Positions 19,684 to 63,155 of a stretch of DNA of 64,000 bases are shown piece after piece. Both the position numbers and the translations under genes were made by a program. The stretch is taken from IMG/VR virus record IMGVR_UViG_3300010885_072628; one strand, written 5' to 3'. Positions within the stretch are counted from its first letter, which is position 1. Every line of letters starts with the position of its first letter. This DNA comes from a virus. Taxonomy: Duplodnaviria; Heunggongvirae; Uroviricota; Caudoviricetes. The notes beneath the pieces are model-generated. The model was not told the DNA's origin, did not search any database, and saw nothing but the letters and a program-made list of their open reading frames with translations.

Positions 19684-20523
19684 TCAATTAAGAACTTTTG
19701 TTTTTTGTAAAGGCACAGGCTTTGCTTTTTTAATTATTTCATCAAAGCTTTCTTCTACTTGTTTTAATGTCCTGTCGTATTGTGTGCCATATCCATTTGC
19801 ACGATTAAACTCTGTTTGTTTTTCTTGTCTCATTTTGTGACGGGCTAAACAAAACTTCTTTGATAGATTTCTATAGTGTAATAGTTTTAATAGATTGTTT
19901 TTAGAAAACAAAGCTGGCCCAGTCGGTTCGCACCAGTGACACCCCGCAGTAAAATTTATTTCTACTTCGCTAGATTTAAAGATACATGGCTTAGATACTG
20001 CTTTGCTTGGAATTCCAAGATTGTTTTGCATGTATATCTGCCCCAGTTTTATATTAGGCAGCTTAGTAGAAACCATTTCATAACCATTAGGAACGAGAAT
20101 TGTTGCGTCTTGTCTTTCTGCATTTGTTATTAATAGCTTTAGATTTGGATGATAAACAAATTCATCCATATCTACAACTATAGACCAGTCATCACCTTGG
20201 CTTTTCCAACAATTGTTTTTCAAGTTTGTGAATATATCATCTCTTATCCCATCAGAATTATACTCTCTTAATATAGCTCCGCTTTTTTCGATTATTTCTC
20301 GAGAATTGTCTGTTGAATTGTTATCGTAAATTACAATTCTATTTGTTATTGTGCTATAATGCTTAATGAAAAATGGTAATAAAATTTCTTCATTATAACA
20401 AAAAGAATAAACAGATATATTCAAAATAGTTTCCTTTCTTAATTCAATTGAGTAGCTAATGATTAATTTACTTGGAAAGATGACAAGAACATTAGATAAA
20501 AAGTCTGATTTGTTAATTGGCAT
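19684..20523 (-). CDS. glycosyltransferase (GT2-like/GT92-like)
   Basis: ISVYSFCYNEEILLPFFIKHY...IVIYDNNSTDNS. The 5' end overlaps the divergent 20459 gene, so the true start is uncertain. Confidence 0.5.
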   Translation of the reverse strand: MPINKSDFLSNVLVIFPSKLIISYSIELRKETILNISVYSFCYNEEILLPFFIKHYSTITNRIVIYDNNSTDNSREIIEKSGAILREYNSDGIRDDIFTNLKNNCWKSQGDDWSIVVDMDEFVYHPNLKLLITNAERQDATILVPNGYEMVSTKLPNIKLGQIYMQNNLGIPSKAVSKPCIFKSSEVEINFTAGCHWCEPTGPALFSKNNLLKLLHYRNLSKKFCLARHKMRQEKQTEFNRANGYGTQYDRTLKQVEESFDEIIKKAKPVPLQKTKVLN

Positions 20524-21331
20524 ACCTTATTTCAATAGGTATGATTTGTTGGAGAAAAACATTTCTTCTTTAAAAAACAAAGGCGACATAATGATCATAA
20601 ACAACTCAATTAACAATCAATCGAATTATGATGCTTTAAGATTTTTGTCGAATATTGCCATCGTTGATCAGACTATGAATATTGGTGTTTCGGCTTCTTG
20701 GAATCTAATATTGAAGTATGCCATAAAGTACAAATACAAGCATGTTCTCATCACCTCTACAGATGTAGAGCATAAAGAGGGAAATATAGAGCTTGCTCTA
20801 GAAGATTTTGAACGCAGTAAAGATTGTTTTTTGGGGCATATCGAAGATTATAATTCTTTTTATATTGATCCAAAAATTGTCGATATAGTTGGATGGTTTG
20901 ATGAAAACTATTACCCAGCATATTGTGAAGACACAGACTACACTTATAGAATCTACTTGGCGGGCCTTTATAAAAAACCTCTTATTGTCGGGGAAAACCC
21001 ACCTATACATTTAAGGTCTCAAACCGTTTTAAGTGATAAGAGCCTTTTTCCTAAATTTCAATATACATACGATTACAATAAAATTTATTTCAAAAAGAAA
21101 TGGGGCGTTTGGGACTTTAATATGATTGAGTCTTGCGGTAATTCATTGCACCTTTTGTTCAAGGAAAAAATAAAAGATTTTGGTGCTTATATTCATCCTT
21201 TTAATGATTTAGGAAAAGATCATAAATACTGGAGCGAACCCGAAGATTTGCATTTAAGGGATTGGGACAAAATCGAGGTAATCAAAAATATCGAATCAAT
21301 ATCGTATAAAGTTTTTTCTAAGCATATATAG
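20459..21331 (+). CDS. beta-1,4-galactosyltransferase-like glycosyltransferase. Paralog of 2614..3384.
   Basis: WFDENYYPAYCEDTDYTYRIY motif. Confidence 0.45.
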   Translation: MINLLGKMTRTLDKKSDLLIGIPYFNRYDLLEKNISSLKNKGDIMIINNSINNQSNYDALRFLSNIAIVDQTMNIGVSASWNLILKYAIKYKYKHVLITSTDVEHKEGNIELALEDFERSKDCFLGHIEDYNSFYIDPKIVDIVGWFDENYYPAYCEDTDYTYRIYLAGLYKKPLIVGENPPIHLRSQTVLSDKSLFPKFQYTYDYNKIYFKKKWGVWDFNMIESCGNSLHLLFKEKIKDFGAYIHPFNDLGKDHKYWSEPEDLHLRDWDKIEVIKNIESISYKVFSKHI

Positions 21332-21345
21332 TTGAAAGGAAAAAA

Positions 21346-21597
21346 ATGAAAACATTTATAGAATTCTGCAAAGACAGTAAAAAAGAGTTGCCAATACTAG
21401 AAAAGACAACTCGCTCGGGAATCATGAATTGGGCATATCCAGATGGATATATACGAAGCCATTATTCCGCTGGTTATTTTATGCCAATCGCTGCCGACGC
21501 TCTACAGAAGATGGGTGTGAAAGCTGACGAAGATGAGGTAGATCACGGCCAAATGACATACAAACATCATGAAAGAATCATCAAACAAGAAAAATAA
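21346..21597 (+). CDS. hypothetical protein
   Basis: 83-aa ORF with AAGGAAAAAAATG RBS context. Confidence 0.3.
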   Translation: MKTFIEFCKDSKKELPILEKTTRSGIMNWAYPDGYIRSHYSAGYFMPIAADALQKMGVKADEDEVDHGQMTYKHHERIIKQEK

Positions 21598-22312
21598 AAT
21601 AGCTTTAGTTTGCATAGCTAAAAACGAAGATAATTATATTAAAGAATGGATTGATTATCATAAAAAAATAGGGTTTGATGATATTTATGTTTATCAAAAT
21701 GACTGGCGATGCAGAATTGATGATTCTAATTTATTTAAAATAGAATTTGATGGTAAAGGTAAGCAAATTGAAAGTTATAATCATTTTTTAAAAAATCACG
21801 GTAAAAAATACGACTGGGCGGGATTTTTCGACATTGATGAGTTTTTAGTTTTAAAAAAACACAACGACGTTAAAGAATTTGTATCTGATTATGCAAAATA
21901 TAACGGAGTTGGAATTAATTGGGTTTTATTTGGAGATAATAACCAAAACCCCCCAGAAAAAGATTTTAGTCTTTTAAAGAGATTCACCATGAGGCAAACA
22001 AAGCCTAATCTATGGGTAAAATCTATAATCAAAATAACAAAAAACGTTTCTATGCTTGTGCATCATCCGAATTTGCCTATAGTCAACACAAATGGGAATG
22101 AATGTATTGGCAACTATAATGAAGAGCTATTGGACGATATAGCACAAATAAATCATTATTTTTGTAAAACCAAAGAAGAGTTTTTAGAGAAATGCTCAAG
22201 AGGAAGAGCAGATTCAATCACTCTTAAAAGAAAAACAAATGAATTTCCAAAACACAACTTCAACGAAATCGAAGATTTCACAGCTTTAAATTTTTTTCAC
22301 CACTCTATATAA
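21569..22312 (+). CDS. glycosyltransferase family 92-like
   Basis: KIALVCIAKNEDNYIKEWIDYHKKIGFDDIYVYQND matches the GT92 A.KNE..Y..EW.EYH...G...hYhYDN signature. Confidence 0.5.
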   Translation: MKESSNKKNKIALVCIAKNEDNYIKEWIDYHKKIGFDDIYVYQNDWRCRIDDSNLFKIEFDGKGKQIESYNHFLKNHGKKYDWAGFFDIDEFLVLKKHNDVKEFVSDYAKYNGVGINWVLFGDNNQNPPEKDFSLLKRFTMRQTKPNLWVKSIIKITKNVSMLVHHPNLPIVNTNGNECIGNYNEELLDDIAQINHYFCKTKEEFLEKCSRGRADSITLKRKTNEFPKHNFNEIEDFTALNFFHHSI

Positions 22313-22334
22313 CCTGTCACACAAGGATAATTTT

Positions 22335-22724
22335 ATGATTTCATTGCAAGAATACAAGGGCTCAAAAAGCGTTAAAAACTTAGTTCAAAAAATGTTTGAA
22401 GCTAGACAGGTAGCTCACAATGTTCATTTTCAAACAAAGAGTTACAGCCTCCATAAAGCTTTAAATTCTTTTTATGATGATATTTTAGATCTAGCTGATA
22501 CATTTGTAGAAACACATCAAGGACAATATGGCATTTTGTCTGGTCACGAGAAAATAGATGTGTCAGCTATTACAGACAGTGAAATAGAATCTTATCTGAA
22601 AGATTGTGCAGAGATATTTTCTTTAGGTAGAGATTCGTTAAAAGACTCTCATCTAAAAAACATAATGGATGAGGTAGTGGCTCTAACCTATAGAACTTTG
22701 TACAAAGTTAGATTTTTGAAGTGA
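22335..22724 (+). CDS. hypothetical protein
   Basis: 129-aa ORF. Confidence 0.35.
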   Translation: MISLQEYKGSKSVKNLVQKMFEARQVAHNVHFQTKSYSLHKALNSFYDDILDLADTFVETHQGQYGILSGHEKIDVSAITDSEIESYLKDCAEIFSLGRDSLKDSHLKNIMDEVVALTYRTLYKVRFLK

Positions 22725-22727
22725 AAA

Positions 22728-22910
22728 CTATTTCTTGCTTTTTACATAATCAAAAATAGTTTTTATAGTGTTGTTCAAATTTTCTATAGCACTTATTTTT
22801 TCTTTGTTATCTTCTTCGAACCAATAAAATCCTTCTTTAGTGGCTTTAATCTTTATGTTGAATTTTTTCGCCCAAGACCGAATATGACCGATTTTATATG
22901 TTTGCATCAA
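22728..22910 (-). CDS. hypothetical small protein
   Basis: 60-aa ORF. Confidence 0.25.
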   Translation of the reverse strand: MMQTYKIGHIRSWAKKFNIKIKATKEGFYWFEEDNKEKISAIENLNNTIKTIFDYVKSKK

Positions 22911-22962
22911 ATCACCTTTTGGCTAATTTTTCTTTACCATCTAAGTATATCAGATTTTGTTT

Positions 22963-23145
22963 TTAACGCAATGGCGAGTTGAACTTCATCGTTTTTACTT
23001 TAGATTTTCGAGGTTTACATCCCAAATTACTTAAAGATCCCCATATTTGAAAATCAGGGTTATTTCTGTCTTTGCAAGAAACGATAGCTCCTGTTCCTGC
23101 CATTTCATTGAACCATTTTTTAAAGCTTATTTTTTGCGAAGACAT
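22963..23145 (-). CDS. hypothetical small protein
   Basis: 60-aa ORF. Confidence 0.25.
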   Translation of the reverse strand: MSSQKISFKKWFNEMAGTGAIVSCKDRNNPDFQIWGSLSNLGCKPRKSKVKTMKFNSPLR

Positions 23146-23206
23146 AAATTTTGAACCTTCTTAATTAATACCATATATATCTATGAGTTATTAACAAGGA
23201 GTTGAA

Positions 23207-23410
23207 ATGGATATTTTTACAAATATTTGGTTGTGGGCTATAGTATTCGTCCTATCAGGCGGGTATATTCTATATATGAGGAAAAAATCACAAGAAACAG
23301 TACAAGCACAATTTCTTGTTACTGGTTTGTTGTTGATTATTTTTTATGTTGTCTGTTTTTTTTCTGGAGTTTGCACTATATTGAGTTTTATCAAAAACTG
23401 GTTTTTCTAA
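23207..23410 (+). CDS. small membrane protein (2 TM)
   Basis: AAGGAG RBS. Hydrophobic helices. Confidence 0.35.
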   Translation: MDIFTNIWLWAIVFVLSGGYILYMRKKSQETVQAQFLVTGLLLIIFYVVCFFSGVCTILSFIKNWFF

Positions 23411-23413
23411 AAA

Positions 23414-24499
23414 ATGTATGATTATCTAATAGTAGGTGCCGGAATATACGGAAGTGTCTTTGCAGAAAGAATGAAAAGCAAAGGCAAATCTGTGCTAATA
23501 ATAGACAAAAGACCGCATGTAGCAGGTAACTGCTACACAGAGGAAGTCGATGGAATTCAAGTACATCGATACGGTTGTCATATATTTAATACCGGCAAAA
23601 AAAATGTTTGGGAATATGTCAACAAGTTCGCTTCGTTCAATAATTACCGACATACAGGAAAAGTGAATTTCGAAGGAAAGGTTTATAGCTTCCCTATAAA
23701 CTTATTGACTCTTCATCAAATCTGGGGCGTAAGTACACCAGAAGAGGCAGAAAACAAATTAAAAGAAGTTAGGATTGATATCAAAAATCCTAAAAACATG
23801 GAAGATTGGTGCTTGTCTCAGATAGGCGAGCAATTATACGAAACCTTCATAAAAGGTTATTCAACAAAACAATGGGGAACTACGCCTGATAATCTGCCAG
23901 CATCTATTGTTCAGCGAATTCCTATTCGACTAACGTATAATGATGATTATTACGAAAACGCCACTTATCAAGGAATTCCATTAGGTGGTTATACCAAAAT
24001 GATTTCCAACATTTTAGATGGAATAAAAGTAGATCTTAGTGTTGATTTTTTTGATATAAAAGAAAAATGGAAACAGTATGCGAAAAAATTGGTTTATTGC
24101 GGTCCAATAGATCGATTTTTTGATTATGAGTTTGGCGAACTAGAATACAGAAGTCTTAAATGGGAAAATAAAGTTTTAACAGGAGATTATCAAGGATGTA
24201 GTGTTGTAAATTATACCGATATGGACAATAAGTTCACAAGAGTTATAGAACACAAGCACTTTGAATTTAAAAATCAAGAAAAAACAGTAGTGAGCTGGGA
24301 GTACTCTGTGCCATGGAAAGAGACTCAAGATCCATATTATCCAATAACTAATGAAAAAAATAAAGAAAGATGCCTAAAGTACAAAAAAATAGCAGAACAA
24401 CAAAAGGATGTTCTTATTTCTGGACGTTTAGGCAAATTTCTTTACCTCGATATGGACGACACAATTGCTTTAGCTCTTAAAGAGTCAAATGAGTTTTAG
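23414..24499 (+). CDS. glf: UDP-galactopyranose mutase
   Basis: Near full-length collinearity with Glf: MYDYLIVGAGIYGSVFAE...VLIIDKRPHVAGNCYTE...IPLGGYTKMI...YRSLKWE...RVIEHKHFEF. Confidence 0.85.
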   Translation: MYDYLIVGAGIYGSVFAERMKSKGKSVLIIDKRPHVAGNCYTEEVDGIQVHRYGCHIFNTGKKNVWEYVNKFASFNNYRHTGKVNFEGKVYSFPINLLTLHQIWGVSTPEEAENKLKEVRIDIKNPKNMEDWCLSQIGEQLYETFIKGYSTKQWGTTPDNLPASIVQRIPIRLTYNDDYYENATYQGIPLGGYTKMISNILDGIKVDLSVDFFDIKEKWKQYAKKLVYCGPIDRFFDYEFGELEYRSLKWENKVLTGDYQGCSVVNYTDMDNKFTRVIEHKHFEFKNQEKTVVSWEYSVPWKETQDPYYPITNEKNKERCLKYKKIAEQQKDVLISGRLGKFLYLDMDDTIALALKESNEF

Positions 24500-28690: not shown

Positions 28691-29485
28691 ATGAGTCTCG
28701 CTCCACATTGGGAAGCTCTTCTTTCGCACATGGTATCTACCCCCAGAAGAATTACAGACTTTGGCGATACTCCAGCTAGAGTTCCAGAATTTGAAAGTTA
28801 CATCATTCAAAGTGCTGAACATGCAACTTCTTATGCTGAATCTGTGATTAGAGGTCCGTGGCCAGAAGCTGAAGATATTATTCTTAGCGATATCCAATCA
28901 AGTTTCAAGTATGCTAAAAGCGTTATCAGAGGCCGATGGGAAAAATGCGAAAGTCTCATCGCAACAGATCCTAGTTTAGCTTATGAATACGCCAAATTTG
29001 TTCTGAAAGGTCGCTTTCCTCTTGGCGAAGCTGCTATTGCTACCGATAGCACACAAGCATACAGGTATGCTACGCAAATTCTGAAGAGTCGTTTCATTGA
29101 AGGAGAAGCTGTAATTGCGAGTACAGAAACAGTGAATAGAAATACATTCACTGTGAAGGAGTATAAAGAGATATTTGTCGGTATTCCTAAGTCAAGTGGT
29201 TATGTAGGATGGGCAGGATGGACAGAAGAACAACTTATGCGTTCTCCTTGTTGGATGTATCTATATGCAAAAGAGTGTATGGATGGACGGCTTCCCGACA
29301 CACTTCATAATTCTATGATAGTTTTTGGCATGACAATTCCAGAAAACTATTATGTTAAGAGATACATGAAAGCAAAAAAGTACCACAAAAGAATTAAGCG
29401 TCGTAAGGCAATTGAACTTCCAGAAGTTTTGCAAATTAAAGACGATCCGGTAGATCAGCCAATAGATCGAGAGGAAGCAGTATGA
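28691..29485 (+). CDS. GRWPEAE-family helical repeat protein
   Basis: Tandem about 38-aa repeats (AESVIRGPWPEAEDIILSD; AKSVIRGRWEKCESLIATDP; AKFVLKGRFPLGEAAIATD; ATQILKSRFIEGEAVIAS) and a C-terminal DGRLPDTLHNSMIVFGM. Confidence 0.5.
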   Translation: MSLAPHWEALLSHMVSTPRRITDFGDTPARVPEFESYIIQSAEHATSYAESVIRGPWPEAEDIILSDIQSSFKYAKSVIRGRWEKCESLIATDPSLAYEYAKFVLKGRFPLGEAAIATDSTQAYRYATQILKSRFIEGEAVIASTETVNRNTFTVKEYKEIFVGIPKSSGYVGWAGWTEEQLMRSPCWMYLYAKECMDGRLPDTLHNSMIVFGMTIPENYYVKRYMKAKKYHKRIKRRKAIELPEVLQIKDDPVDQPIDREEAV

Positions 29486-30714
29486 ATCATCCAGAATTTA
29501 ATTCTTACATCGCACAGTATAAAGGCCCGCCAGCCTCTACACCCGCAATGCCGGTAGAGATACAAGATAAAATTATCAATGGAATTTTATCTCCATCTGC
29601 ACCTATTGGATATAGAGAGTTATATCAATTTTGCACACAAATGATTGCAAAAAAAAGATGGATTAGATTTGAGGAAGCTGCTCTTAAAAGCATTAGCGAA
29701 ACGTCTTTTCAAGTTGTCAACAAACACAACACGCTCATTTCGTATGCTAGCAACATTATGCAGAACAGATGGAAAGAAATCGAACAATATATTGAAGATC
29801 CTAATGGGGTGTACGACTACGCTTCCCTTATTTTGAAGGCTAGATGGAGAGAAAAAGAACATATTGTGCTAAAAGGCACAAAAGGCACTTTGAATAAAGA
29901 TTGGTCAGTAGCCACTCGATATGCACATTCATTGTGTGCTGGAAGATGGCTAGAATATGAAAGTGTTCTTATCAACGATAATCCTGATCCTGCTGCTCTT
30001 GCGAACTATGCAAGAAACATTGTAAGAGAAAGATGGCCAGCAGCAGAACCTTTTATTTTGAAAGACATAGATGCATCGTATTTTTATGCCAGAGATGTTA
30101 TCGGAGGCAGGTGGCCAGAAGCAGAACCTATTATTGCACAAGATCCTGTTTTTGCTAAGAGATATGCCGAGCATGTAATACATGGTGCGTTCAAACAAGC
30201 CGAGCCTATTTTGCTAGAAAGTGAGCACTATTTTGATTACTTTTCATTTGCCACACGTTCTAATCGAGATTTGGCCACTAAGTTAGCCACGCAATTTGAT
30301 GAGTCGATGACCGTCAAGCAGGTGCTTGAAATTATTCAAGACGGTAGAAATAAGAGCTTTGAAAACAAACTTCTTAATAGCACTCACGCACACCGAAAAG
30401 CAATTTGGTATGCAAAAGAAGTGCTAAAGGCCAGATGGCCAGAAGCAGAGATTTTTCTTTGTAAAAGTGCTAAATACGGGGTAGAATACGCAAGAGATGT
30501 TATCAAAGGCAGGTGGGAACAAGCTGAGAAAGAGATAGCTAAAAAACCAAATTATCTTTTTCAATATGCTGCACAAGTCATTAAAGGTAGACTTCCAGAA
30601 GTTTTACACAACAGAATGATAGCTCACAGCTTTGTAGACGCTAAATACACCAAAAGATATTTTCAAATGCTGGAAAAAACAGATGAGAGACAGCTATCAG
30701 ATACTGGGGCTTGA
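29482..30714 (+). CDS. GRWPEAE-family helical repeat protein (about 9 repeats)
   Basis: ARDVIGGRWPEAEPIIAQDP, AKEVLKARWPEAEIFLCKS, ARDVIKGRWEQAEKEIAKKP, C-terminal KGRLPEVLHNRMIAHSF. Confidence 0.5.
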   Translation: MNHPEFNSYIAQYKGPPASTPAMPVEIQDKIINGILSPSAPIGYRELYQFCTQMIAKKRWIRFEEAALKSISETSFQVVNKHNTLISYASNIMQNRWKEIEQYIEDPNGVYDYASLILKARWREKEHIVLKGTKGTLNKDWSVATRYAHSLCAGRWLEYESVLINDNPDPAALANYARNIVRERWPAAEPFILKDIDASYFYARDVIGGRWPEAEPIIAQDPVFAKRYAEHVIHGAFKQAEPILLESEHYFDYFSFATRSNRDLATKLATQFDESMTVKQVLEIIQDGRNKSFENKLLNSTHAHRKAIWYAKEVLKARWPEAEIFLCKSAKYGVEYARDVIKGRWEQAEKEIAKKPNYLFQYAAQVIKGRLPEVLHNRMIAHSFVDAKYTKRYFQMLEKTDERQLSDTGA

Positions 30715-33266: not shown

Positions 33267-34091
33267 ATGATTGAAGTATATTCGGAACTAACAAAAGAAA
33301 AACTGCCCGTGGAATTTATGAACTTTCCAGATAATGAGAGTTTTGTTAAATTTGACTATAACGGGGGACCTTTAAACATTGTTTGGAAATATGAAAATGA
33401 TAGCGAATTAATTAGTTTGGCATTGTTGTATGATGTTATTAGTCAGAATCGTTGTTCGATAGTTAATCTCTTTATTCCTTATTTTCCACACGCACGACAA
33501 GATAGAGAAGAAGTTAAAAGTCAACCTTTCTCTTTAAGAGTTGTATCTGAATTTGTGAACGAGTTCTTAATAGGTGATTTGTGCGTCTGCTTAGATGTTC
33601 ATTCCGATGTTCTGGAGACAACAATGGTCATGGAGTTTGAGAACATCCCAAGTTCAAATTATTCTGACAGCATCGATACAAAGTATGATTATATTATTTG
33701 TCCAGATAAAGGGGCTATGAATAGGTGTGAATCTTGGGGCGAAAAAAGAAATACGCCAGTTCTATATTGCCAAAAAAATCGTGATCCTTCAACGGGCAAA
33801 CTGAGCGATCCTATTATTCCAGATATTGATTTATCTAATAAAAGAGTTTTATTGGTAGATGATATTGGAACAGGGTTTGGTACTCATGTTATGCTGGCAA
33901 ATGTGTTCCATGGAAAGCATCAAAATCTTGTTATGGATTTATGGGTTACTCACGCATCTTTCGTCAGAGGCAAGGAAATGGTATTACGTGTTTTCAATCA
34001 TGTTTATACCACAGATAGCTTGAAGGGTGCCACCCAACAAAACTCTGACAAAATTACAGTTTTTGATTGCACGAAATACTTTTTTAACTAA
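33267..34091 (+). CDS. ribose-phosphate pyrophosphokinase (Prs) homolog. Candidate ADP-ribose pyrophosphokinase (Adps) of a NARP1-type NAD+ reconstitution pathway.
   Basis: IPYFPHARQDR (Prs IPYFGYARQDR), CLDVHSD (DLHA), VLLVDDIGTGFGT (PRPP-binding loop, divergent from DDMIDTGGT), VTHASF. Confidence 0.7.
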   Translation: MIEVYSELTKEKLPVEFMNFPDNESFVKFDYNGGPLNIVWKYENDSELISLALLYDVISQNRCSIVNLFIPYFPHARQDREEVKSQPFSLRVVSEFVNEFLIGDLCVCLDVHSDVLETTMVMEFENIPSSNYSDSIDTKYDYIICPDKGAMNRCESWGEKRNTPVLYCQKNRDPSTGKLSDPIIPDIDLSNKRVLLVDDIGTGFGTHVMLANVFHGKHQNLVMDLWVTHASFVRGKEMVLRVFNHVYTTDSLKGATQQNSDKITVFDCTKYFFN

Positions 34092-34102
34092 GGAATAACA
34101 AA

Positions 34103-35569
34103 ATGGAAGTTCTCCCAATTTTGCTTTCGGACAGCTACAAACAATTTCACTGGATGATGTATCCAAATGGTATTACACGCCTTTATAGCAATTTCACTCC
34201 TCGTAGTTTCAAACACTTAGGATGTGACAAGGCTGTATTTTTTGGTCTACAATACTATATCAAGGAGTATATTCTGGGTCAGTGGCAAAGAAACTTCTTT
34301 GATAAGCCACTAAATGAAGTAGCACAAGAATACCAAAGATTTCATAAACATTTTAGTTTTTATGATATGCCAGTAGAGCATATTACTAAGCTTCACAATC
34401 TTGGTTATCTACCAATAAAAATTAAAGCACTTCCAGAAGGTTGTCTTGTTAATGAAAAGATTCCATTTTTTACAATCACAAACACCCATGATGATTTTGC
34501 ATGGTTAGTTAATTTTCTTGAAACTCAAATTAGCACAAGCATTTGGGACTGTTGTGTTGTTGCTACTATTGCAAGACAATATCGAACTCTATTAAATAAT
34601 CATGCCAATAAGACTTGTGATAATAAAGATTTTGTTCAATGGCAGGGACATGATTTTAGTCAACGAGGAAGAAGTAGTACAGAAAGCACTTTTAATCAAG
34701 CGGGTCATTTGCTAAGTTTTACCGGCACGGATACTATTCCTAGTGTTTTTATGCTAGAGAAATATTATAATGCTGATATTACCAAAGAATTAGTAGGAAG
34801 CAGCGTTCCAGCGAGCGAACACAGTATTCAAACAAGTTATGGTAAAGAAAATGAAATTGATGGATTTATAAGAATTCTGGACAGATTCCCAAGCGGTATT
34901 GTCAGTATTGTTAGTGACAGTTTTGATCTCTGGGAAGTCTGTACAACTTTTGTAACCAAACTTAAAGATAAAATTTTATCTAGAGATGGAAAGCTAGTCA
35001 TTAGGCCAGATAGTGGTAATCCTGTTGACATTGTTTGTGGTGCTATAGAACAAGAATGGCAAAACGAACAAGCAACACTTCCACAAGAAAAAGGTGTTGT
35101 TGAACTTCTTTGGGATGTTTTTGGAGGAACAATTAACGAGAAAGGATATAAAGTTCTTGATCCTCATATTGGAGTAATCTACGGAGATAGTATTTCTCTT
35201 GAAAGAGCAGACGCTATTTGCAAAAGACTAGAGCGAAAAGGATTTGCTAGCAGCAATATTGTGTTTGGTATTGGCAGCTACACCTATAACCACAATACCA
35301 GAGATAGTTTGGGAATTGCTGTTAAAAGTACATACTGTGAGGTTGATGGAGAAAAGAGAAATATTTTTAAAGATCCCGTAACGGATGATGGAGTTAAGAA
35401 GTCTGCACGGGGGTTATTGAAAGTAGTTAAAGAAAATAATGAATATGTTTTGTATGATCAGGTTAGTGATCTCGAAGAAACTCAGGGTGAATTAACAACA
35501 GTTTTTGAAAATGGAAAACTTTTGGTAGATCATAAATTGAGCGATATTAGAGAAAGGTTGTGGAAATAA
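34103..35569 (+). CDS. nadV: nicotinamide phosphoribosyltransferase family protein (NadV/NAMPT; Namat-like)
   Basis: 488 aa, collinear with NAMPT: FFGLQYYIKEY, LPIKIKALPEG, GHDFSQRG, FTGTDT, SVPASEHS, IVSDSFD, IRPDSGNP, IYGDSI, NIFKDPV. Confidence 0.85.
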   Translation: MEVLPILLSDSYKQFHWMMYPNGITRLYSNFTPRSFKHLGCDKAVFFGLQYYIKEYILGQWQRNFFDKPLNEVAQEYQRFHKHFSFYDMPVEHITKLHNLGYLPIKIKALPEGCLVNEKIPFFTITNTHDDFAWLVNFLETQISTSIWDCCVVATIARQYRTLLNNHANKTCDNKDFVQWQGHDFSQRGRSSTESTFNQAGHLLSFTGTDTIPSVFMLEKYYNADITKELVGSSVPASEHSIQTSYGKENEIDGFIRILDRFPSGIVSIVSDSFDLWEVCTTFVTKLKDKILSRDGKLVIRPDSGNPVDIVCGAIEQEWQNEQATLPQEKGVVELLWDVFGGTINEKGYKVLDPHIGVIYGDSISLERADAICKRLERKGFASSNIVFGIGSYTYNHNTRDSLGIAVKSTYCEVDGEKRNIFKDPVTDDGVKKSARGLLKVVKENNEYVLYDQVSDLEETQGELTTVFENGKLLVDHKLSDIRERLWK

Positions 35570-36323: not shown

Positions 36324-36517
36324 AAAATAAAAATACTGAGAATATGATTCAAAGTGTAATTTTAACTTTTGATGATGGGCAAGAGGCGATATTTGTTGGT
36401 AAGGCTGTTTGTTTTCAAGGGGAAACAAGAAAAATAAGAGATATTGCATTTTCTCCTCCAAGCGATATGCCAGAAGATTGTAGTTGGGGAGATCTTTCCA
36501 ATACTCGGAAAACATAA
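36320..36517 (+). CDS. hypothetical small protein
   Basis: 65-aa ORF. Confidence 0.3.
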   Translation: MKNKNTENMIQSVILTFDDGQEAIFVGKAVCFQGETRKIRDIAFSPPSDMPEDCSWGDLSNTRKT

Positions 36518-36524
36518 AAATAAA

Positions 36525-37016
36525 ATGAAAACTACAAACAAATACGTATTCTTCTGGAATGGAATTTACTCTCAATGGCATAAAGCAAATATGACTATTG
36601 ACGGTATCACTTACAATTCATGCGAACAATATATGATGCACCAAAAAGCCTTAACTTTTGGTGATACGGAAACTGCTAAAATTATCATGGCAGAAACTAA
36701 TCCAAGTGAGCAAAAGAAATACGGCCGTATGATCAGAAACTTTGACAAAAGTGTTTGGGATAAAGTTTGTTTAAGCATTGTAATTAAAGGAAACTACTTT
36801 AAGTTTTCTCAAAATGAAAATCTTAAAACTTCTTTATTACTTACAGGTAATAGAATCTTGGTTGAGGCATCACCACTTGATAACATTTGGGGTATTGGAA
36901 TGGCTGAAGACGACGTTAACATTGAACACCCTATGCGTTGGAAAGGTCTTAATCTTTTAGGCCAAGCAATTACAATCGTTAAACAAGAACTTATACGAGA
37001 AATTACAAATACATAA
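36525..37016 (+). CDS. NADAR (YbiA/DUF1768) domain protein. Candidate reverser of guanine ADP-ribosylation (anti-DarT1-type).
   Basis: VFFWNGIYSQWH...IDGITYNSCEQYMMHQKALTFGD...YGRMIRNF...VWD...LLLTGNRILVEASPLDNIWGIG matches the NADAR signature. Start at ATG 36525 within the 36-bp repeat. Confidence 0.8.
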   Translation: MKTTNKYVFFWNGIYSQWHKANMTIDGITYNSCEQYMMHQKALTFGDTETAKIIMAETNPSEQKKYGRMIRNFDKSVWDKVCLSIVIKGNYFKFSQNENLKTSLLLTGNRILVEASPLDNIWGIGMAEDDVNIEHPMRWKGLNLLGQAITIVKQELIREITNT

Positions 37017-39240: not shown

Positions 39241-39720
39241 ATGTTGATACACACAAAAGGTAATATCATCGATCTAGCAGAGCAAGGTCTTTTTGATGTT
39301 ATAGTTCATGGTTGTAATTGTCAAAACACTATGGGTTCTGGAATTGCCAAGGAAATTAGAGAAAGATACCCACAGGCTTACGAATCAGACACTCAGATAT
39401 CTAAATCTAAAAACGCAAATCAAAAATTAGGCACATACTCTGAGGCGAATGTAGGCAAATTTGTTATCATTAATGCTTATACACAACTAAATTATTTACC
39501 TCGTGGTCAAGACCATTTTGATTATGAAGGCTTTGATAAAATTTTAAACATTTTGCTAAATCAATATGGTAACGCTTCTATTGGTTTTCCTTATATAGGA
39601 ATGGGATTAGCGGGTGGAGATTCAAACAAGATAATTGAATCTCTTGAGTCTTTTGCTAAAAAAGTTTCTAAGGTAGGCGGCAAGGTTACACTAGTAGAAT
39701 TTGACAAAGGAACTCGCTAA
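39241..39720 (+). CDS. macro domain protein, TARG1/DarG-like subfamily. Candidate ADP-ribose removal from DNA or protein.
   Basis: HTKGNIIDL...DVIVHGCNCQNTMGSGIAKEI...PYIGMGLAGGD parallels TARG1 YVKGDLF...HCISEDCRMGAGIA...PRIGCGLD. Confidence 0.6.
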   Translation: MLIHTKGNIIDLAEQGLFDVIVHGCNCQNTMGSGIAKEIRERYPQAYESDTQISKSKNANQKLGTYSEANVGKFVIINAYTQLNYLPRGQDHFDYEGFDKILNILLNQYGNASIGFPYIGMGLAGGDSNKIIESLESFAKKVSKVGGKVTLVEFDKGTR

Positions 39721-47377: not shown

Positions 47378-47860
47378 ATGATAATCAAGCCCCCACAAAA
47401 CATAGCCCTCAGAGACAGCGAATATTCAATTTTTTTGGCTGGTTCAATCGAAATGGGTTCAGCAATTGATTGGCAAAAAGATCTTGGAGAACATCTATCC
47501 GGCAAAGGCTATACAGTGTACAATCCAAGACGAGATGATTGGGATAGCACTTGGGAGCAAAAATTTGAAAGCCCTCAATTTTACCAACAAGTGAATTGGG
47601 AATTAAACGCTCTGGATCAAGCGAATTACATCGTGATGTATTTTGATCCTAAAACTAAAAGCCCAATAAGTCTTTTGGAATTAGGACTTTATGCAAATAC
47701 TAACAAATTATATGTGATTTGTCCCGAAGGCTTTTGGCGAAAAGGAAATGTGGATATTGTTTGCAACAAATATGATATCCCACTTTTCCCCGACATTGAA
47801 GAATTCAAGAACAAATGGGAAAACTTTGCCATTAAAAAGAGAATGTGGGGAACAAGATGA
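47378..47860 (+). CDS. nucleoside 2-deoxyribosyltransferase-like protein
   Basis: SIFLAGSIEMG...W (N-terminal Rossmann-like motif). SPISLLELGLYANTNKLYVICPEG with the conserved Glu, as in NDT/DNPH1 enzymes. Confidence 0.5.
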   Translation: MIIKPPQNIALRDSEYSIFLAGSIEMGSAIDWQKDLGEHLSGKGYTVYNPRRDDWDSTWEQKFESPQFYQQVNWELNALDQANYIVMYFDPKTKSPISLLELGLYANTNKLYVICPEGFWRKGNVDIVCNKYDIPLFPDIEEFKNKWENFAIKKRMWGTR

Positions 47861-56588: not shown

Positions 56589-56774
56589 ATGCTATTGCCT
56601 TTTATTTTTTATTTTTCACAATCTTTAGAAATCCCTGAGTATATTCCTAAAAATAAATATGCTCAACATGTCCCGTACGAATTTCTAGGAAGTGTGCAAG
56701 AAAAAAATAAAGGCATAATGGAATACAATCCGATAGAGAAGTTGATTGAAAAGCAGAACGAAAAAATAAAATGA
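56589..56774 (+). CDS. hypothetical small protein (doubtful)
   Basis: 61-aa ORF. Confidence 0.2.
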   Translation: MLLPFIFYFSQSLEIPEYIPKNKYAQHVPYEFLGSVQEKNKGIMEYNPIEKLIEKQNEKIK

Positions 56775-57559
56775 CTAGAATAATTGATTGTTTTATTTTC
56801 TACAACGAATTAGACTTGCTAAAATATAGACTTGATTTGTTAAATGATGTTGTAGATTATTTTGTAATTGTTGAATCTACGCATACTTTTGTTGGAAAAG
56901 AAAAAAGGCTATTTTTCAACGAAAACAAACATCTATTTGATAGTGAAAAAATAATCCATATTATTGTGGATGATTTTCCATATAAACATCCTAACAATGT
57001 GGATGTTTGGCAAAATGAATATTTTCAAAGGAATGCTATTCAAAGAGGAATAGATCTAGTAAAAGATATATCCGATGAAGATGTAATAATACTATCAGAT
57101 GCAGATGAAATTCCTGATCCACACACTTTGATCAAAATCAAAAAAGGCGATATATTAGTTGATCTTCATACGCTTCAAATGGATTTGTACTATTATAATT
57201 TAAATACAATATTTCAAAGTAAATGGACTTTATGTAAAATTGTATCGTATAAAAAATACAAGGAATTAAATATCAGTTGCAACGATATTAGAAATAAAAA
57301 GTGTGATGAAGAAATCTTAAATGGTGGATGGCATTTATCTTATTTTGGCGACAAGCACTTTATTCAAAATAAGATTCAAAATTTCTCACATCAGGAACTC
57401 AATAACTCAGAGTATACGGAGTTAGATAAAATTGAAGAAAGAATGAATAATTCTAAAGATTTATATGATAGAAATTACTTAGATATGAGTTATATAAAAA
57501 TAGAAGATAACAAGTATTTGCCTAAAGATTATCAAAAGCTAGTTGGATTTTATATATGA
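56771..57559 (+). CDS. glycosyltransferase family 17-like (GnT-III-like)
   Basis: IIDCFIFYNELDLLKYRLDLLNDVVDYFVIVESTHTFVGKEKRLFF matches the GT17 F.NELDLLE.RL..L...VD.FVIVES..TF.G..K.L signature. Confidence 0.6.
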   Translation: MTRIIDCFIFYNELDLLKYRLDLLNDVVDYFVIVESTHTFVGKEKRLFFNENKHLFDSEKIIHIIVDDFPYKHPNNVDVWQNEYFQRNAIQRGIDLVKDISDEDVIILSDADEIPDPHTLIKIKKGDILVDLHTLQMDLYYYNLNTIFQSKWTLCKIVSYKKYKELNISCNDIRNKKCDEEILNGGWHLSYFGDKHFIQNKIQNFSHQELNNSEYTELDKIEERMNNSKDLYDRNYLDMSYIKIEDNKYLPKDYQKLVGFYI

Positions 57560-62049: not shown

Positions 62050-62197
62050 ATACTAAAAAAGACATAAAATCTATTTCGAATCCGTTAGAACATATTCTCG
62101 AAGTAGCAGACAGCTACTTTAAAGATAAGTTTCTAATTCTAAATGCTAGAGACGAGTTAAAAAGATTGAAGCTCATGCTGAAGAATTGCAAAGAAAA

Positions 62198-62914: not shown

Positions 62915-63155
62915 AATTGTTTTGACATTCGGAACTAACTTTTCTTTGTGCTTTAAAAGTTTTAATACGCCTGAATTAGCAAGAGATTTTTTGCTAAATT
63001 TCAGTAGATATAACGAAACATATGTCAGGTCGCAACTTCACAACATAGAAACAGACGAGTGGTTTGATTTCGATAAGTATGGTAACATAGAACCTCAAAC
63101 CCACATGAAATTGCCCATGTTCGCCTTTTTTAATTCTTTTTTCAAAAAATCATGA
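62907..63155 (+). CDS. hypothetical small protein
   Basis: 82-aa ORF. Confidence 0.3.
   Translation: MYEIVLTFGTNFSLCFKSFNTPELARDFLLNFSRYNETYVRSQLHNIETDEWFDFDKYGNIEPQTHMKLPMFAFFNSFFKKS

What the first reader, a model, noticed from the sequence alone, without database searches (positions are those of the whole stretch)
33267..35569. Adjacent Prs-like kinase and NAMPT: a NARP1-type NAD+ reconstitution pair
A ribose-phosphate pyrophosphokinase homolog sits 11 nt upstream of a full-length nicotinamide phosphoribosyltransferase. It keeps IPYFPHARQDR but has a divergent PRPP loop VDDIGTGFGT. A viral Prs-homolog next to NAMPT is the gene architecture of the NARP1 pathway. In that pathway ADP-ribose is pyrophosphorylated to ADPR-PP and condensed with nicotinamide to rebuild NAD+, countering NAD+-depleting immunity (Thoeris, DSR, SIR2, SEFIR). 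The divergent substrate loop fits a substrate other than ribose-5-phosphate.
Basis: partly seen in the sequence, partly recalled or inferred. Interest (0 to 1): 0.75.

Follow-up and report, generated by a model that had tools for sequence, protein, structure and literature searches.

The report
Phage NAD+-rebuilding gene pair (NARP1)
An uncultivated large phage carries the known two-gene NARP1 module, which most likely rebuilds NAD+ from the fragments left by NAD+-destroying bacterial immunity; it is an ordinary new member, but its kinase belongs to a subfamily with a reshaped ATP-binding loop that nobody has tested.

Summary
A 274-aa Prs-like ORF (33267..34091) lies 11 nt upstream of a 488-aa NAMPT-like ORF (34103..35569), and both quoted motifs are present.

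The Prs-like protein is an Adps, not a housekeeping Prs:
- A profile of 11 Namat-linked phage Adps scores it 180 bits, against 104 for a profile of 120 archaeal PRPS. E. coli Prs gives the reverse pattern.
- A neighbour-joining tree separates the Adps-like proteins from cellular PRPS in 100/100 bootstraps.
- It keeps the catalytic Lys and the acceptor-groove residues.
- It lacks the PRPS C-terminal helices.

The NAMPT-like protein is most similar to the crystallised SPbetaL1 Namat among solved structures. It carries the Namat adenine-clamp motif (GSYTYNHNTRD).

Across related contigs only these two genes stay adjacent. No Nmnat, the NARP2 partner, was found in the window.

One feature is unusual. 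The Adps belongs to a small, metagenome-only subfamily whose donor loop, DDIGTGFGTH, is identical across the subfamily. It differs from the loops of all validated Adps.

An Adpp-like Macro gene and a NADAR gene lie 0.9-3.7 kb downstream.

No biochemistry was possible.

The parts
33267..34091 (+). adps-like gene: a 274-aa PRPS-fold pyrophosphokinase. Predicted reaction: ADP-ribose + ATP -> ADPR-PP + AMP.
   Evidence: ORF listed.

The Adps profile scores it 179.9 bits, against 104.4 bits for the class III PRPS profile. A neighbour-joining tree gives a 100/100 split from cellular PRPS.

Residues equivalent to ICP1 Adps F18, R87, H121, D161, K185 and D212/D213 are F20, R77, H112, D147, K170 and D198/D199.

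The AlphaFold2 model has pLDDT 94.6, a two-domain PRPS fold and no C-terminal helices.

The donor (PP) loop DDIGTGFGTH occupies residues 198-207. It is identical in the 41 closest metagenomic homologues listed.
34092..34102 (+). 11-nt intergenic spacer containing the Shine-Dalgarno-like box of the downstream gene
   Evidence: The sequence reads ...TAA ctaaggaataacaaa ATG, with AAGGA 9-10 nt before the ATG. No promoter-like or terminator-like site above chance separates the two genes.
34103..35569 (+). namat-like gene: a 488-aa NAMPT-fold transferase. Predicted reaction: ADPR-PP + nicotinamide -> NAD+ + PPi.
   Evidence: ORF listed.

The best solved-structure relative is 9w5x, which is SPbetaL1 Namat, at 513.6 bits. 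The score against the KVP40-like NARP2 Nampt of phage nt-1 is 214.5 bits.

All nicotinamide-, NMN- and catalytic-core residues are kept: D10, Y12, F185, R188, D210, H240, R301, D303, G361, D362 and R400.

The clamp helix motif is G391-S-Y-T-Y-N-H-N-T-R-D401. The clamp loop has K37-H38 at the position of SPbetaL1 R40.
39241..39720 (+). Possible accessory gene, not shown to be part of the module: a 159-aa Macro-domain protein related to the NARP1-associated ADPR-1''-phosphate phosphatase Adpp
   Evidence: Pfam Macro match at 27.4 bits, above the cut-off of 22.

It is 29% identical (E 2e-13) to Vibrio phage Quinn gp175, which sits between adps and namat. Quinn gp175 is 89.8% identical to the corresponding protein of Vibrio phage Gary, whose Adpp was validated (bioRxiv 10.64898/2026.01.28.702374).

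It lies 3.7 kb and about nine ORFs downstream of namat. This is outside the two-gene distance used to define NARP1-AP. The same family (T4 Tk.4-like) occurs in 2,933 phage records.

Best explanation
The two genes are a NARP1 module (NAD+ reconstitution pathway 1) in an uncultivated large phage.

Proposed mechanism:
1. A host NADase effector (Thoeris, DSR1/2, SIR2-HerA, SEFIR and similar) cleaves NAD+ into ADP-ribose and nicotinamide.
2. The 274-aa PRPS-fold enzyme (Adps) transfers the beta,gamma-pyrophosphate of ATP onto the 1''-OH of the distal ribose of ADP-ribose. This gives ADPR-PP.
3. The 488-aa NAMPT-fold enzyme (Namat) displaces that pyrophosphate with nicotinamide and regenerates NAD+ in one step. 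Its adenine clamp makes it prefer ADPR-PP over PRPP.

Shown here: homology, clade membership, conserved catalytic and clamp residues, conserved adjacency of the two genes, and absence of an Nmnat in the window.

Inferred from the family, not shown here: the two reactions and the counter-defence role.

The Adps belongs to a divergent subfamily with a remodelled ATP-donor loop, so its kinetics or donor preference may differ from those of the characterised enzymes.
For: (1) Adps clade membership.
- A profile built from 11 GenBank phage Adps, each with a Namat next to it or up to two genes away and none from the window's own subclade, scores the protein 179.9 bits. A profile of 120 class III archaeal PRPS scores it 104.4 bits (difference +75.5).
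- E. coli Prs gives 128.9 versus 211.7 bits (-82.8).
- Known Adps scored with themselves left out of the profile give +32 to +159.
- A 73-taxon neighbour-joining tree splits {window, metagenomic relatives, 11 Adps} from {class III PRPS, E. coli Prs} in 100/100 bootstraps.
- On TIGR01251 the protein scores 102.6 bits. This is within the 96-123 band of validated and Namat-linked Adps, against 423 for E. coli Prs.

(2) Catalytic and acceptor residues defined in the ICP1 Adps structures are kept. K185, R87, H121, D161, D212, D213 and F18 correspond to K170, R77, H112, D147, D198, D199 and F20 (PMC13586617).

(3) The AlphaFold2 model (pLDDT 94.6) ends in a beta-strand and has no C-terminal alpha11-alpha12 module. 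That paper calls this absence a signature of the family.

(4) Namat.
- The protein scores 454-535 bits against Adps-linked Namats and 214 bits against the NARP2-type Nampt.
- tblastn against phages is bimodal in the same way.
- The motif GSYTYNHNTRD fits the published Namat signature GS-X-Phi-X-Phi-X-Phi-TRD. The NARP2 Nampt has GGGLLQQLDRD and the bona fide H. ducreyi NadV has GAQTYQRNTRD (PMC12774641).
- The clamp-loop position has Lys followed by His, one of the described arrangements.

(5) Linkage.
- Namat lies directly downstream of the Adps homologue in all four further contexts looked up within the subfamily: P0011, P0013, P0021 and P0028.
- The same is true in 3 of 3 testable IMG/VR contigs.
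- The flanking ORFs are not conserved with those contigs.

(6) Among 85 window ORFs of at least 95 aa there is no Pfam hit to Nmnat, Nudix, NadR or PnuC.

(7) The partner Namats of the variant-loop subfamily keep the aromatic adenine clamp. This implies that their substrate still carries adenine.
Against: - No biochemistry or genetics could be done.
- The donor loop DDIGTGFGTH differs at four positions from the common Adps loop DDICDGGGTF. One change is His for the Phe that caps the ATP adenine in ICP1 (F221). No enzyme with this loop has been assayed.
- Pairwise similarity does not separate Adps from archaeal PRPS: 57-81 bits to validated Adps against 77 bits to T. volcanium PRPS.
- phrog_619 scores E. 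coli Prs as high as the window protein: 193 versus 190 bits.
- Clamp position 7 is His rather than Tyr or Phe.
- Namats can also use PRPP in vitro (PMC12774641).
- A genuine Nampt, H. ducreyi NadV, nests among the Namats in my tree. Tree position alone therefore does not fix the substrate.
- Only 64 kb of a contig of at least 90 kb was visible, and relatives have genomes of 128-323 kb. An Nmnat elsewhere cannot be excluded.
- Two more distant Prs-like relatives (P0042, P0054) have no Namat within 4 kb.
Confidence: 0.85

Rival explanations
1. PRPP-route salvage. The Prs-like enzyme is a true PRPP synthetase that makes PRPP from ribose-5-phosphate. The NAMPT homologue makes NMN from PRPP and nicotinamide. 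NMN is then adenylylated by a host enzyme or by a phage Nmnat outside the window, giving a NARP2- or NadV-like route.
For: - The fold and the catalytic residues are shared with PRPS.
- Similarity to T. volcanium PRPS (76.9 bits) is as high as to validated Adps.
- Namat enzymes retain PRPP-dependent NMN synthesis in vitro (PMC12774641).
- H. ducreyi NadV, a real Nampt, scores 452.6 bits against the window protein and groups among the Namats.
- Only part of the genome is visible.
Against: - The protein falls inside the Adps clade with 100/100 support, and its profile scores are opposite to those of a genuine Prs.
- It fails every NCBIfam Prs cut-off.
- The ribose-5-phosphate phosphate-binding loop D-T-G-G-T of PRPS is T-G-F-G-T here. 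It has Gly at the Thr position, as ICP1 and Bas63-like Adps do.
- The NAMPT homologue has the adenine clamp, which H. ducreyi NadV and the KVP40-type Nampt lack.
- No Nmnat was found in 64 kb.
- Osterman et al. found no phage with both pathways (bioRxiv 10.1101/2024.02.11.579819).
Confidence: 0.07
2. A modified NARP1. The variant-loop Adps subfamily keeps pyrophosphoryl transfer to an ADP-ribose-type acceptor. It uses a different phosphoryl donor (another NTP or dNTP) or accepts a modified ADPR species. The pathway would then differ biochemically from the characterised one.
For: - Four residues of the donor site change together. ICP1 C215, D216, A218 and F221 correspond to G, T, F and H in the window.
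- The new loop is identical in the 41 closest metagenomic homologues listed, which share only 37-87% identity with the window protein. This indicates strong selection on the new sequence.
- Intermediate loops (DDIGDGFGTH, DDIGDGFRTH) exist.
Against: - Validated Adps already tolerate very different loops: SPbetaL1 has DDLSSFGGTF and ICP1 has DDICDGAASF.
- The acceptor-groove residues and the catalytic Lys are unchanged.
- The partner Namat keeps the same adenine clamp as Namats paired with classic-loop Adps.
- There is no direct evidence for any other donor or acceptor.
Confidence: 0.07
3. The genes are decaying or non-functional passengers.
For: None was found for the window. One ICP1 isolate does carry an indel in its adps-namat region, so loss of the module does occur in nature.
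Against: - Both ORFs are intact and full length. They have ribosome-binding sites and all catalytic residues.
- The pair is conserved across diverged contigs: 75-78% identity for Namat and 48-55% for Adps.
Confidence: 0.01

Closest known systems
NARP1 (Adps + Namat) of Bacillus phages SPbetaL1 and FADO, E. coli phage Bas63 and Vibrio phage ICP1 (Osterman et al., bioRxiv 10.1101/2024.02.11.579819; PMC12774641; PMC13586617)
   Same: - The gene order is the same: two genes, adps then namat, with a tight spacer.
- The Adps falls in the same clade.
- The same catalytic Lys and acceptor-groove residues are present.
- The C-terminal PRPS helices are missing.
- The Namat has the same catalytic core and the GS-X-Phi-X-Phi-X-Phi-TRD clamp motif.
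- No Nmnat was detected.
   Different: - The Adps is only 26-29% identical to the validated enzymes.
- It has a different donor loop: DDIGTGFGTH, against DDICDGAASF, DDICDGGRTF and DDLSSFGGTF.
- It has His where all the validated enzymes have Phe (ICP1 F221).
- Namat clamp position 7 is His instead of Tyr.
- The host and phage are uncultivated, and the closest relatives are metagenomic only.
NARP1-AP of Vibrio phage Gary (Adps-Adpp-Namat; bioRxiv 10.64898/2026.01.28.702374)
   Same: The window encodes a 159-aa Macro protein homologous to the Adpp-position protein of the Gary/Quinn group: 29% identity, E 2e-13, and the same length.
   Different: - The Macro gene is not in the operon. It lies 3.7 kb and about nine ORFs downstream.
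- It belongs to the very widespread T4 Tk.4-like family.
- ADPR-1''-phosphate phosphatase activity is not established for it.
NARP2 / NadV-NatV of Vibrio phage KVP40 (represented here by phage nt-1)
   Same: It has a NAMPT-fold enzyme and the same overall purpose, which is to restore NAD+.
   Different: - The window protein scores 214 bits against the nt-1 Nampt, compared with 454-535 bits against Namats.
- The nt-1 Nampt lacks the clamp (GGGLLQQLDRD).
- The annotated genes around the nt-1 Nampt include no Prs-like gene.
- NARP2 needs an Nmnat, and none was found in the window.
Class III archaeal PRPP synthetases (Thermoplasma volcanium 3lpn/3mbi, Sulfolobus 4twb)
   Same: - They are the closest solved structures: Foldseek TM-score 0.83, phmmer 76.9 bits.
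- They are similar in length and also lack the class I allosteric and filament elements.
   Different: - They form a separate clade (100/100).
- The loop is DDIISTGGT, against DDIGTGFGT in the window.
- They are cellular housekeeping genes and are not linked to a NAMPT.
Haemophilus ducreyi pNAD1 NadV (PDB 9ke8)
   Same: It scores 452.6 bits against the window NAMPT homologue and groups among the Namats in the tree.
   Different: - It is a stand-alone gene on a 5.6-kb plasmid that has no Prs-like gene.
- Its clamp positions are not aromatic (GAQTYQRNTRD).
- From my own knowledge of the literature (not checked here), it acts as a nicotinamide phosphoribosyltransferase that makes NMN.

Membership tests
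NARP1 (operational definition of Osterman et al. 2024) | A Prs-family protein that falls in the Adps clade, separate from cellular Prs | tested here: met
   Profile difference of +75.5 bits in favour of Adps, against -82.8 for E. coli Prs. Leave-one-out range for known Adps is +32 to +159. Neighbour-joining bipartition supported 100/100.
NARP1 (operational definition of Osterman et al. 2024) | A Namat homologue within ten genes of adps | tested here: met
   It is directly downstream with an 11-nt spacer. The same adjacency holds in four related contexts and in 3/3 testable IMG/VR contigs.
NARP1 (operational definition of Osterman et al. 2024) | The Namat belongs to the Adps-associated group, distinct from the KVP40-type Nampt | tested here: met
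   454-535 bits to Adps-linked Namats against 214 bits to the nt-1 Nampt. The identity distribution in phages is bimodal. Caveat: H. ducreyi NadV is not separated from the Namats in my tree (33/200).
NARP1 (operational definition of Osterman et al. 2024) | Enzyme activities (ADPR + ATP -> ADPR-PP; ADPR-PP + Nam -> NAD+) and rescue from NAD+-depleting defence | not testable with these tools
   This requires purified proteins with LC-MS, and plaque assays.
Adps (structure-based features, PMC13586617) | Catalytic Lys on the beta-hairpin (ICP1 K185) | tested here: met
   K170 within the motif QKNRDPSTGK. It is invariant in a 78-sequence alignment.
Adps (structure-based features, PMC13586617) | Acceptor-groove residues R87, H121, D161, D212, D213 and F18 | tested here: met
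   R77, H112, D147, D198, D199 and F20. ICP1 F92 corresponds to E82 here, but it is also not conserved in the SPbetaL1, FADO and REP9 Adps.
Adps (structure-based features, PMC13586617) | PP (donor) loop conserved among Adps homologues | tested here: inconclusive
   The window has DDIGTGFGTH.

Shared with the validated loops:
- loss of the PRPS Thr at loop position 4 (Gly here, as in ICP1 and REP9);
- Thr or Ser at position 7.

Different from the validated loops:
- Thr for Asp or Ser at position 3;
- Phe at position 5;
- His for the Phe found in all validated enzymes at position 8.

The validated loops also differ strongly from one another. Of the next-nearest cluster representatives, 106 of 119 have DDxxDG..F.
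Adps (structure-based features, PMC13586617) | Absence of the C-terminal alpha11-alpha12 module of PRPS | tested here: met
   The AlphaFold2 model (pLDDT 94.6) ends with strand 263-266 and has no terminal helices. The protein is 274 aa, against 315 aa for E. coli Prs.
Namat (PMC12774641) | Nampt-like catalytic core, including the catalytic His and SPbetaL1 residues F189, R192, D215, R306, D308 and R399 | tested here: met
   F185, R188, D210, H240, R301, D303 and R400, plus D10 and Y12.
Namat (PMC12774641) | Clamp helix motif GS-X-Phi1-X-Phi2-X-Phi3-TRD with stacking residues at positions 3 and 7 | tested here: met
   G391-S-Y-T-Y-N-H-N-T-R-D401. Phi1 is T, Phi2 is N and Phi3 is N. Position 3 is Tyr. 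Position 7 is His rather than Tyr or Phe.

Among the 120 closest relatives, position 3 is always Y, F or W. Position 7 is mostly Y or F (about two thirds), with C in 17 and H in 10. Whether the His stacks on adenine was not tested.
Namat (PMC12774641) | Clamp loop with Arg, Lys or Tyr at the stacking position (SPbetaL1 R40) | tested here: met
   K37 aligns with R40 and is followed by H38. The Lys-then-next-residue arrangement is described for Bas63. The geometry was not tested.
Housekeeping ribose-phosphate diphosphokinase (Prs/PRPS) | Passes the curated NCBIfam Prs model cut-offs | tested here: not met
   TIGR01251 gives 102.6 bits against a cut-off of 113, and NF002095 gives 105.5 against 296. 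All 11 Prs models fall below their cut-offs. This is a weak discriminator, because two Namat-linked Adps reach 121-123 bits on TIGR01251.
Housekeeping ribose-phosphate diphosphokinase (Prs/PRPS) | Ribose-5-phosphate phosphate-binding loop DD-x-x-[DS]-T-G-G-T | tested here: not met
   The loop is DD-I-G-T-G-F-G-T, with Gly at the conserved Thr position and Phe at a Gly position.
NARP2 (Nampt + Nmnat) | An Nmnat encoded by the same phage | tested here: not met
   There is no CTP_transf_like (Nmnat), Nudix or NadR Pfam hit among 85 window ORFs of at least 95 aa. The rest of the genome is not visible.
NARP1-AP (NARP1 with associated phosphatase) | A Macro-domain Adpp within two genes of the NARP1 genes | tested here: not met
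   The only Macro gene (39241..39720) is about nine ORFs downstream, although it is homologous to the Gary/Quinn Adpp-position protein.

The most novel reading that the evidence does not exclude
The DDIGTGFGTH subfamily of Adps may be a biochemically distinct branch of NARP1 whose remodelled donor site uses another phosphoryl donor or has altered regulation.

This subfamily is small, seen only in metagenomes and in large phage contigs, and absent from 185,579 species genomes.

In these phages NARP1 may also work together with dispersed ADP-ribose-releasing enzymes: the NADAR gene 0.9 kb downstream and the Adpp-like Macro gene 3.7 kb downstream. Together these would form an ADP-ribose recycling island rather than a simple two-gene operon.
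Probability: 0.1. Interest if true: 0.55.

Novelty: new member of a known kind. Interest (0 to 1): 0.3.

Why it matters
NARP1 is a recently described and now structurally characterised way for phages to defeat NAD+-depleting immunity. This locus extends it to an uncultivated lineage of large phages.

It also identifies a tightly conserved, untested variant of the Adps ATP-donor loop. That variant is a natural experiment for the sequence-structure rule proposed from the ICP1 Adps structures.

In practical terms, the comparison shows which annotation criteria work:
- Clade profiles, the Namat clamp motif and gene linkage do separate Adps/Namat from Prs/Nampt.
- Pairwise similarity, phrog_619 and Namat tree position do not.

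Tried and rejected
- Megablast of the pair against GenBank phages gave no match.
- phrog_619 cannot discriminate. E. coli Prs scores 193 bits against 190 for the window protein.
- Pairwise phmmer and PDB scores do not separate Adps from archaeal PRPS. Validated Adps also hit archaeal PRPS best.
- A literature search for the code 9KE8 returned only irrelevant papers. The chain was identified instead by tblastn as H. ducreyi pNAD1 NadV.
- The promoter and terminator scan of 28-41 kb was at chance level (43 promoter-like sites against 43.4 expected; 8 terminator-like against 7.7). Operon boundaries therefore cannot be drawn.
- A search for a conserved third gene flanking the pair found none.
- A pattern scan for the variant loop in 185,579 species genomes gave no hits.
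- Foldseek of the AlphaFold2 model returned only PRPS structures. The Adps structures are not in the PDB copies available here.
- I considered and rejected NARP3 (PnuC + NadR-like; PMC13464706), because there are no such domains in the window.
- I considered a RyDEP association (bioRxiv 10.64898/2026.05.28.727677). No gene lies between the two NARP1 genes (11-nt spacer), and the Pfam scans gave no hit named as RyR. The exact RyDEP Pfam accession was not checked.
Full report
**Observation**

One search lists two ORFs on the + strand. One runs 33267..34091 (274 aa, ATG start) and the other 34103..35569 (488 aa, ATG start). An 11-nt spacer separates them.

Each gene is preceded by an AAGGA box 9-10 nt before its ATG. 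The stop codon of the upstream ORF lies 1 nt before the first ATG.

The pair sits in a long run of ORFs that lie almost entirely on the same strand. A consensus scan found promoter-like and terminator-like sites only at chance frequency, so transcript boundaries cannot be drawn. The identical pair is also present on a second, 2.8-kb JGI contig. Megablast against GenBank phages found nothing.

**What the first protein is**

It is a PRPS-fold protein:
- Pfam Pribosyltran_N at E 1.7e-6.
- TIGR01251 at E 1.9e-29.
- The best solved relatives are the class III PRPP synthetases of Thermoplasma volcanium (76.9 bits) and Sulfolobus (66.2 bits).
- An AlphaFold2 model with mean pLDDT 94.6 superposes on T. 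volcanium PRPS at TM-score 0.83.

It fails the curated cut-off of every NCBIfam Prs model (TIGR01251: 102.6 bits against 113).

Two simple measures did not decide between Adps and Prs:
- Pairwise scores to validated Adps (57-81 bits) are no better than the score to archaeal PRPS. Validated Adps also hit archaeal PRPS best in the PDB.
- phrog_619 scores E. coli Prs (193 bits) as high as the window protein (190 bits).

I therefore fetched reference sequences:
- Experimentally characterised Adps from SPbetaL1, FADO and ICP1, plus a Bas63-like Felixounavirus (REP9).
- Seven further GenBank phage homologues. Each has a Namat next to it or up to two genes away.
- 120 class III archaeal PRPS.
- E. 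coli Prs.

The profile test gave a clear answer. A profile of the 11 phage Adps scores the window protein 179.9 bits. The archaeal PRPS profile scores it 104.4 bits, a difference of +75.5. E. coli Prs gives 128.9 against 211.7 bits, a difference of -82.8. When each known Adps is left out of the profile and scored, the difference ranges from +32 to +159. The window value lies inside that range.

A 73-taxon neighbour-joining tree agrees. It separates {window, metagenomic relatives, 11 Adps} from {class III PRPS, E. coli Prs} in 100 of 100 bootstraps. The window nests inside the Adps-like group. On TIGR01251 the window score (102.6) lies within the 96-123 band of these Adps, against 423 for E. 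coli Prs.

**Residue-level comparison with the ICP1 Adps structures (PMC13586617)**

The conserved features are kept:
- The catalytic hairpin lysine K185 corresponds to K170.
- The acceptor-groove residues R87, H121, D161, D212 and D213 correspond to R77, H112, D147, D198 and D199.
- F18 corresponds to F20.
- ICP1 F92 corresponds to E82, but that position also varies in the SPbetaL1, FADO and REP9 Adps.

The model ends in a beta-strand (residues 263-266) with no terminal helices. This matches the absence of the PRPS alpha11-alpha12 module, which the paper calls a signature of the family.

In Adps it holds the ATP phosphates. Here it reads DDIGTGFGTH. It shares two features with validated Adps: loss of the PRPS Thr (Gly here, as in ICP1 and REP9) and a Thr or Ser at the seventh position. 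It differs from every validated enzyme in two ways. It has Thr where they have Asp or Ser. It has His where they have Phe, and in ICP1 that Phe (F221) caps the ATP adenine.

**The variant-loop subfamily**

Among the 120 best metagenomic homologues, the closest 41 (P0001-P0039, P0043 and the window itself) all have exactly DDIGTGFGTH, although they share only 37-87% identity with the window protein. More distant homologues have the classic DDICDGGGTF loop. Intermediates such as DDIGDGFRTH and DDIGDGFGTH also occur.

An exhaustive HMMER search of 1.84 billion cluster representatives found only 22 at E <= 1e-30, and 3,143 at E <= 1e-10. A degenerate DNA pattern for the loop found four IMG/VR contigs of 128-323 kb. 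It found none in one genome for each of 185,579 bacterial and archaeal species. No GenBank phage protein is more than about 31% identical among the records listed, and all 1,332 matching records are below 60%.

The window's Adps therefore belongs to a small subfamily of large phages, seen only in metagenomes, with a derived and strongly constrained donor loop.

**What the second protein is**

It is a full-length NAMPT-family enzyme (NF006629 at 568 bits). Its best solved relative is 9w5x/9w5w (513.6 bits). I confirmed that this is SPbetaL1 Namat by a 100% tblastn match.

Scores to Adps-linked Namats are 360-535 bits. The score to the KVP40-like NARP2 Nampt of phage nt-1 is 214.5 bits. A tblastn against 50,697 phage records is bimodal in the same way: 34-52% identity to proteins from phages in which they sit next to a Prs-like gene, and about 28-32% to T4-like and KVP40-like Nampts.

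All nicotinamide-, NMN- and catalytic-core residues of SPbetaL1 Namat are kept, including the catalytic His (H240) and R301, the equivalent of R306.

The published discriminator is the adenine 'selectivity clamp' (PMC12774641):
- The helix motif GS-X-Phi1-X-Phi2-X-Phi3-TRD reads G391-S-Y-T-Y-N-H-N-T-R-D401 here.
- Position 3 is Tyr. Position 7 is His instead of the usual Tyr or Phe.
- In the 120 closest relatives, position 3 is always Y, F or W. Position 7 is mostly Y or F (about two thirds), with C in 17 and H in 10.
- The clamp loop has K37-H38 at the position of SPbetaL1 R40. This is the Lys-then-next-residue arrangement described for Bas63.
- The nt-1 Nampt has GGGLLQQLDRD at the helix motif.

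**A caveat found along the way**

The second-best PDB relative, 9ke8 (452.6 bits), is the NadV of Haemophilus ducreyi plasmid pNAD1. It is a stand-alone gene on a 5.6-kb plasmid with no Prs-like gene. From my own knowledge, it is a genuine nicotinamide phosphoribosyltransferase.

In a neighbour-joining tree it nests among the Namats. The split of Namats from {NadV, nt-1} is supported in only 33 of 200 bootstraps. Its clamp positions are not aromatic (GAQTYQRNTRD). The Namat call therefore rests on the clamp motif and the linkage to adps, not on tree position.

**Linkage**

Within the variant-loop subfamily, Namat lies directly downstream of the Adps homologue in all four further contexts I looked up: P0011, P0013, P0021 and P0028. 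The same holds in 3 of 3 testable IMG/VR contigs. Many Adps and Namat homologues also share the same longest-contig length.

The ORFs flanking the pair in the window have no counterparts next to the pair on those contigs. The conserved unit is therefore the two genes.

Two more distant Prs-like proteins have no Namat within 4 kb: P0042 (loop DDIGDGFRTH) and P0054 (classic loop). A Namat homologue (P0149) does sit on a contig of the same length as P0042's.

**Absence of the NARP2 partner**

Pfam scans covered 85 window ORFs of at least 95 aa. They found no Nmnat (CTP_transf_like), Nudix, NadR or PnuC domain. This covers only the 64-kb window of a contig of at least 89,934 bp.

**Mechanism**

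The best-supported explanation is the published NARP1 chemistry (bioRxiv 10.1101/2024.02.11.579819; PMC13586617; PMC12774641):
1. Adps pyrophosphorylates the 1''-OH of ADP-ribose with the beta,gamma-phosphates of ATP.
2. Namat condenses the resulting ADPR-PP with nicotinamide to give NAD+.
3. This offsets NAD+ depletion by Thoeris, DSR, SIR2-HerA, SEFIR and similar systems.

Homology, clade membership, motif conservation and linkage are shown here. The reactions and the phenotype are inferred.

One piece of internal evidence suggests the intermediate is still ADPR-PP in the variant-loop subfamily. The partner Namats keep the aromatic adenine clamp.

The main rival is a PRPP-route salvage pathway, which I rate at about 0.07. 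A biochemically altered NARP1, with a different donor or acceptor, is also about 0.07.

**Surroundings**

Two other genes for ADP-ribose-handling enzymes lie just downstream.
- A NADAR protein is encoded at 36444..37016 (probable start at 36525). It scores 169 bits on Pfam and hits TIGR02464. This family includes orphan phage antitoxin-like enzymes that neutralise DarTG1 (PMC11257639).
- A 159-aa Macro protein is encoded at 39241..39720. It is 29% identical (E 2e-13) to Vibrio phage Quinn gp175, which lies between adps and namat. Quinn gp175 is 89.8% identical to the corresponding protein of phage Gary, whose Adpp dephosphorylates ADPR-1''-phosphate to feed NARP1 (bioRxiv 10.64898/2026.01.28.702374).

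The Macro gene is about nine ORFs away from namat, so the locus does not meet the NARP1-AP definition. The family is also very widespread in T4-like phages.

**Verdict**

This is a new member of a known system. The one non-trivial feature is the invariant, uncharacterised donor loop of its Adps subfamily. Interest is modest (0.3).

Noticed in passing
window 36444..37016 (+); probable start ATG at 36525: A NADAR-domain protein (Pfam 169 bits; TIGR02464 144 bits) is encoded 0.9 kb downstream of namat. Phage orphan NADARs are reported to neutralise the DarTG1 DNA ADP-ribosylating defence (PMC11257639). With NARP1 and the Macro gene, it forms a 6.5-kb stretch rich in ADP-ribose-handling enzymes.
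   Followed up: partly
window 39241..39720 (+): A 159-aa Macro-domain protein of the T4 Tk.4-like family. It is 29% identical (E 2e-13) to the Adpp-position protein of Vibrio phage Quinn, which is 89.8% identical to that of phage Gary. It could act as an unlinked ADPR-1''-phosphate phosphatase feeding NARP1. Homologues occur in 2,933 phage records.
   Followed up: partly
L013 4001-4816 and L014 4001-4795 (contigs carrying P0042 and P0054): These Prs-like or Adps-like genes sit in T4-like contigs (an rIIB gene is nearby in L014) with no Namat within 4 kb. Their neighbours are HD, SNase, cREC_REC, R2K, HD_4 and metallophosphatase genes. A Namat homologue (P0149) lies on a contig of the same length as P0042's. 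Adps and Namat therefore seem to be unlinked in some lineages.
   Followed up: partly
L026 3828-5315 (H. ducreyi plasmid pNAD1, = PDB 9ke8): The classic NadV nicotinamide phosphoribosyltransferase groups among phage Namats in a neighbour-joining tree. It has lost the aromatic clamp residues (GAQTYQRNTRD). pNAD1 also carries genes annotated as a major capsid protein and a phage/plasmid replication protein. This hints that this NadV derives from a phage Namat.
   Followed up: partly
L001 2025-4446 (Vibrio phage ICP1 isolate 2019_Mat_D, MW794191.1) versus L006 6542-8884 (NC_015157.1): In this ICP1 isolate the adps reading frame stops after residue 206, just before the PP loop. The namat ORF starts late. 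The region is 99.75% identical to the reference ICP1 with one indel and five mismatches. This is either natural inactivation of NARP1 or a sequencing error.
   Followed up: partly
window 29482..30714 (+): A 410-aa protein built of about eight repeats with a recurring motif of the form '...(A/G)RW(P/x)EAE(P/x)(I/F)...'. It has no Pfam hit and only weak similarity to ORFs near the pair in related contigs.
   Followed up: no
window 47378..47860, 61162..62049, 63152..63757 (+): A nucleoside 2-deoxyribosyltransferase-like protein (Pfam E 6e-38), an RlaP nucleotidyltransferase and a metallophosphoesterase. RlaP, HD_4, metallophosphatase and RNA-ligase or RtcB genes also recur near the Adps homologues on related contigs (L010, L013, L014).
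   Followed up: no
window 20459..24499, 56771..57559 and 62186..62914: UDP-galactopyranose mutase and several glycosyltransferases (GT2, GT17, GT92), which suggests phage-encoded sugar modification. A sigma-70-like factor is encoded at 23..694.
   Followed up: no
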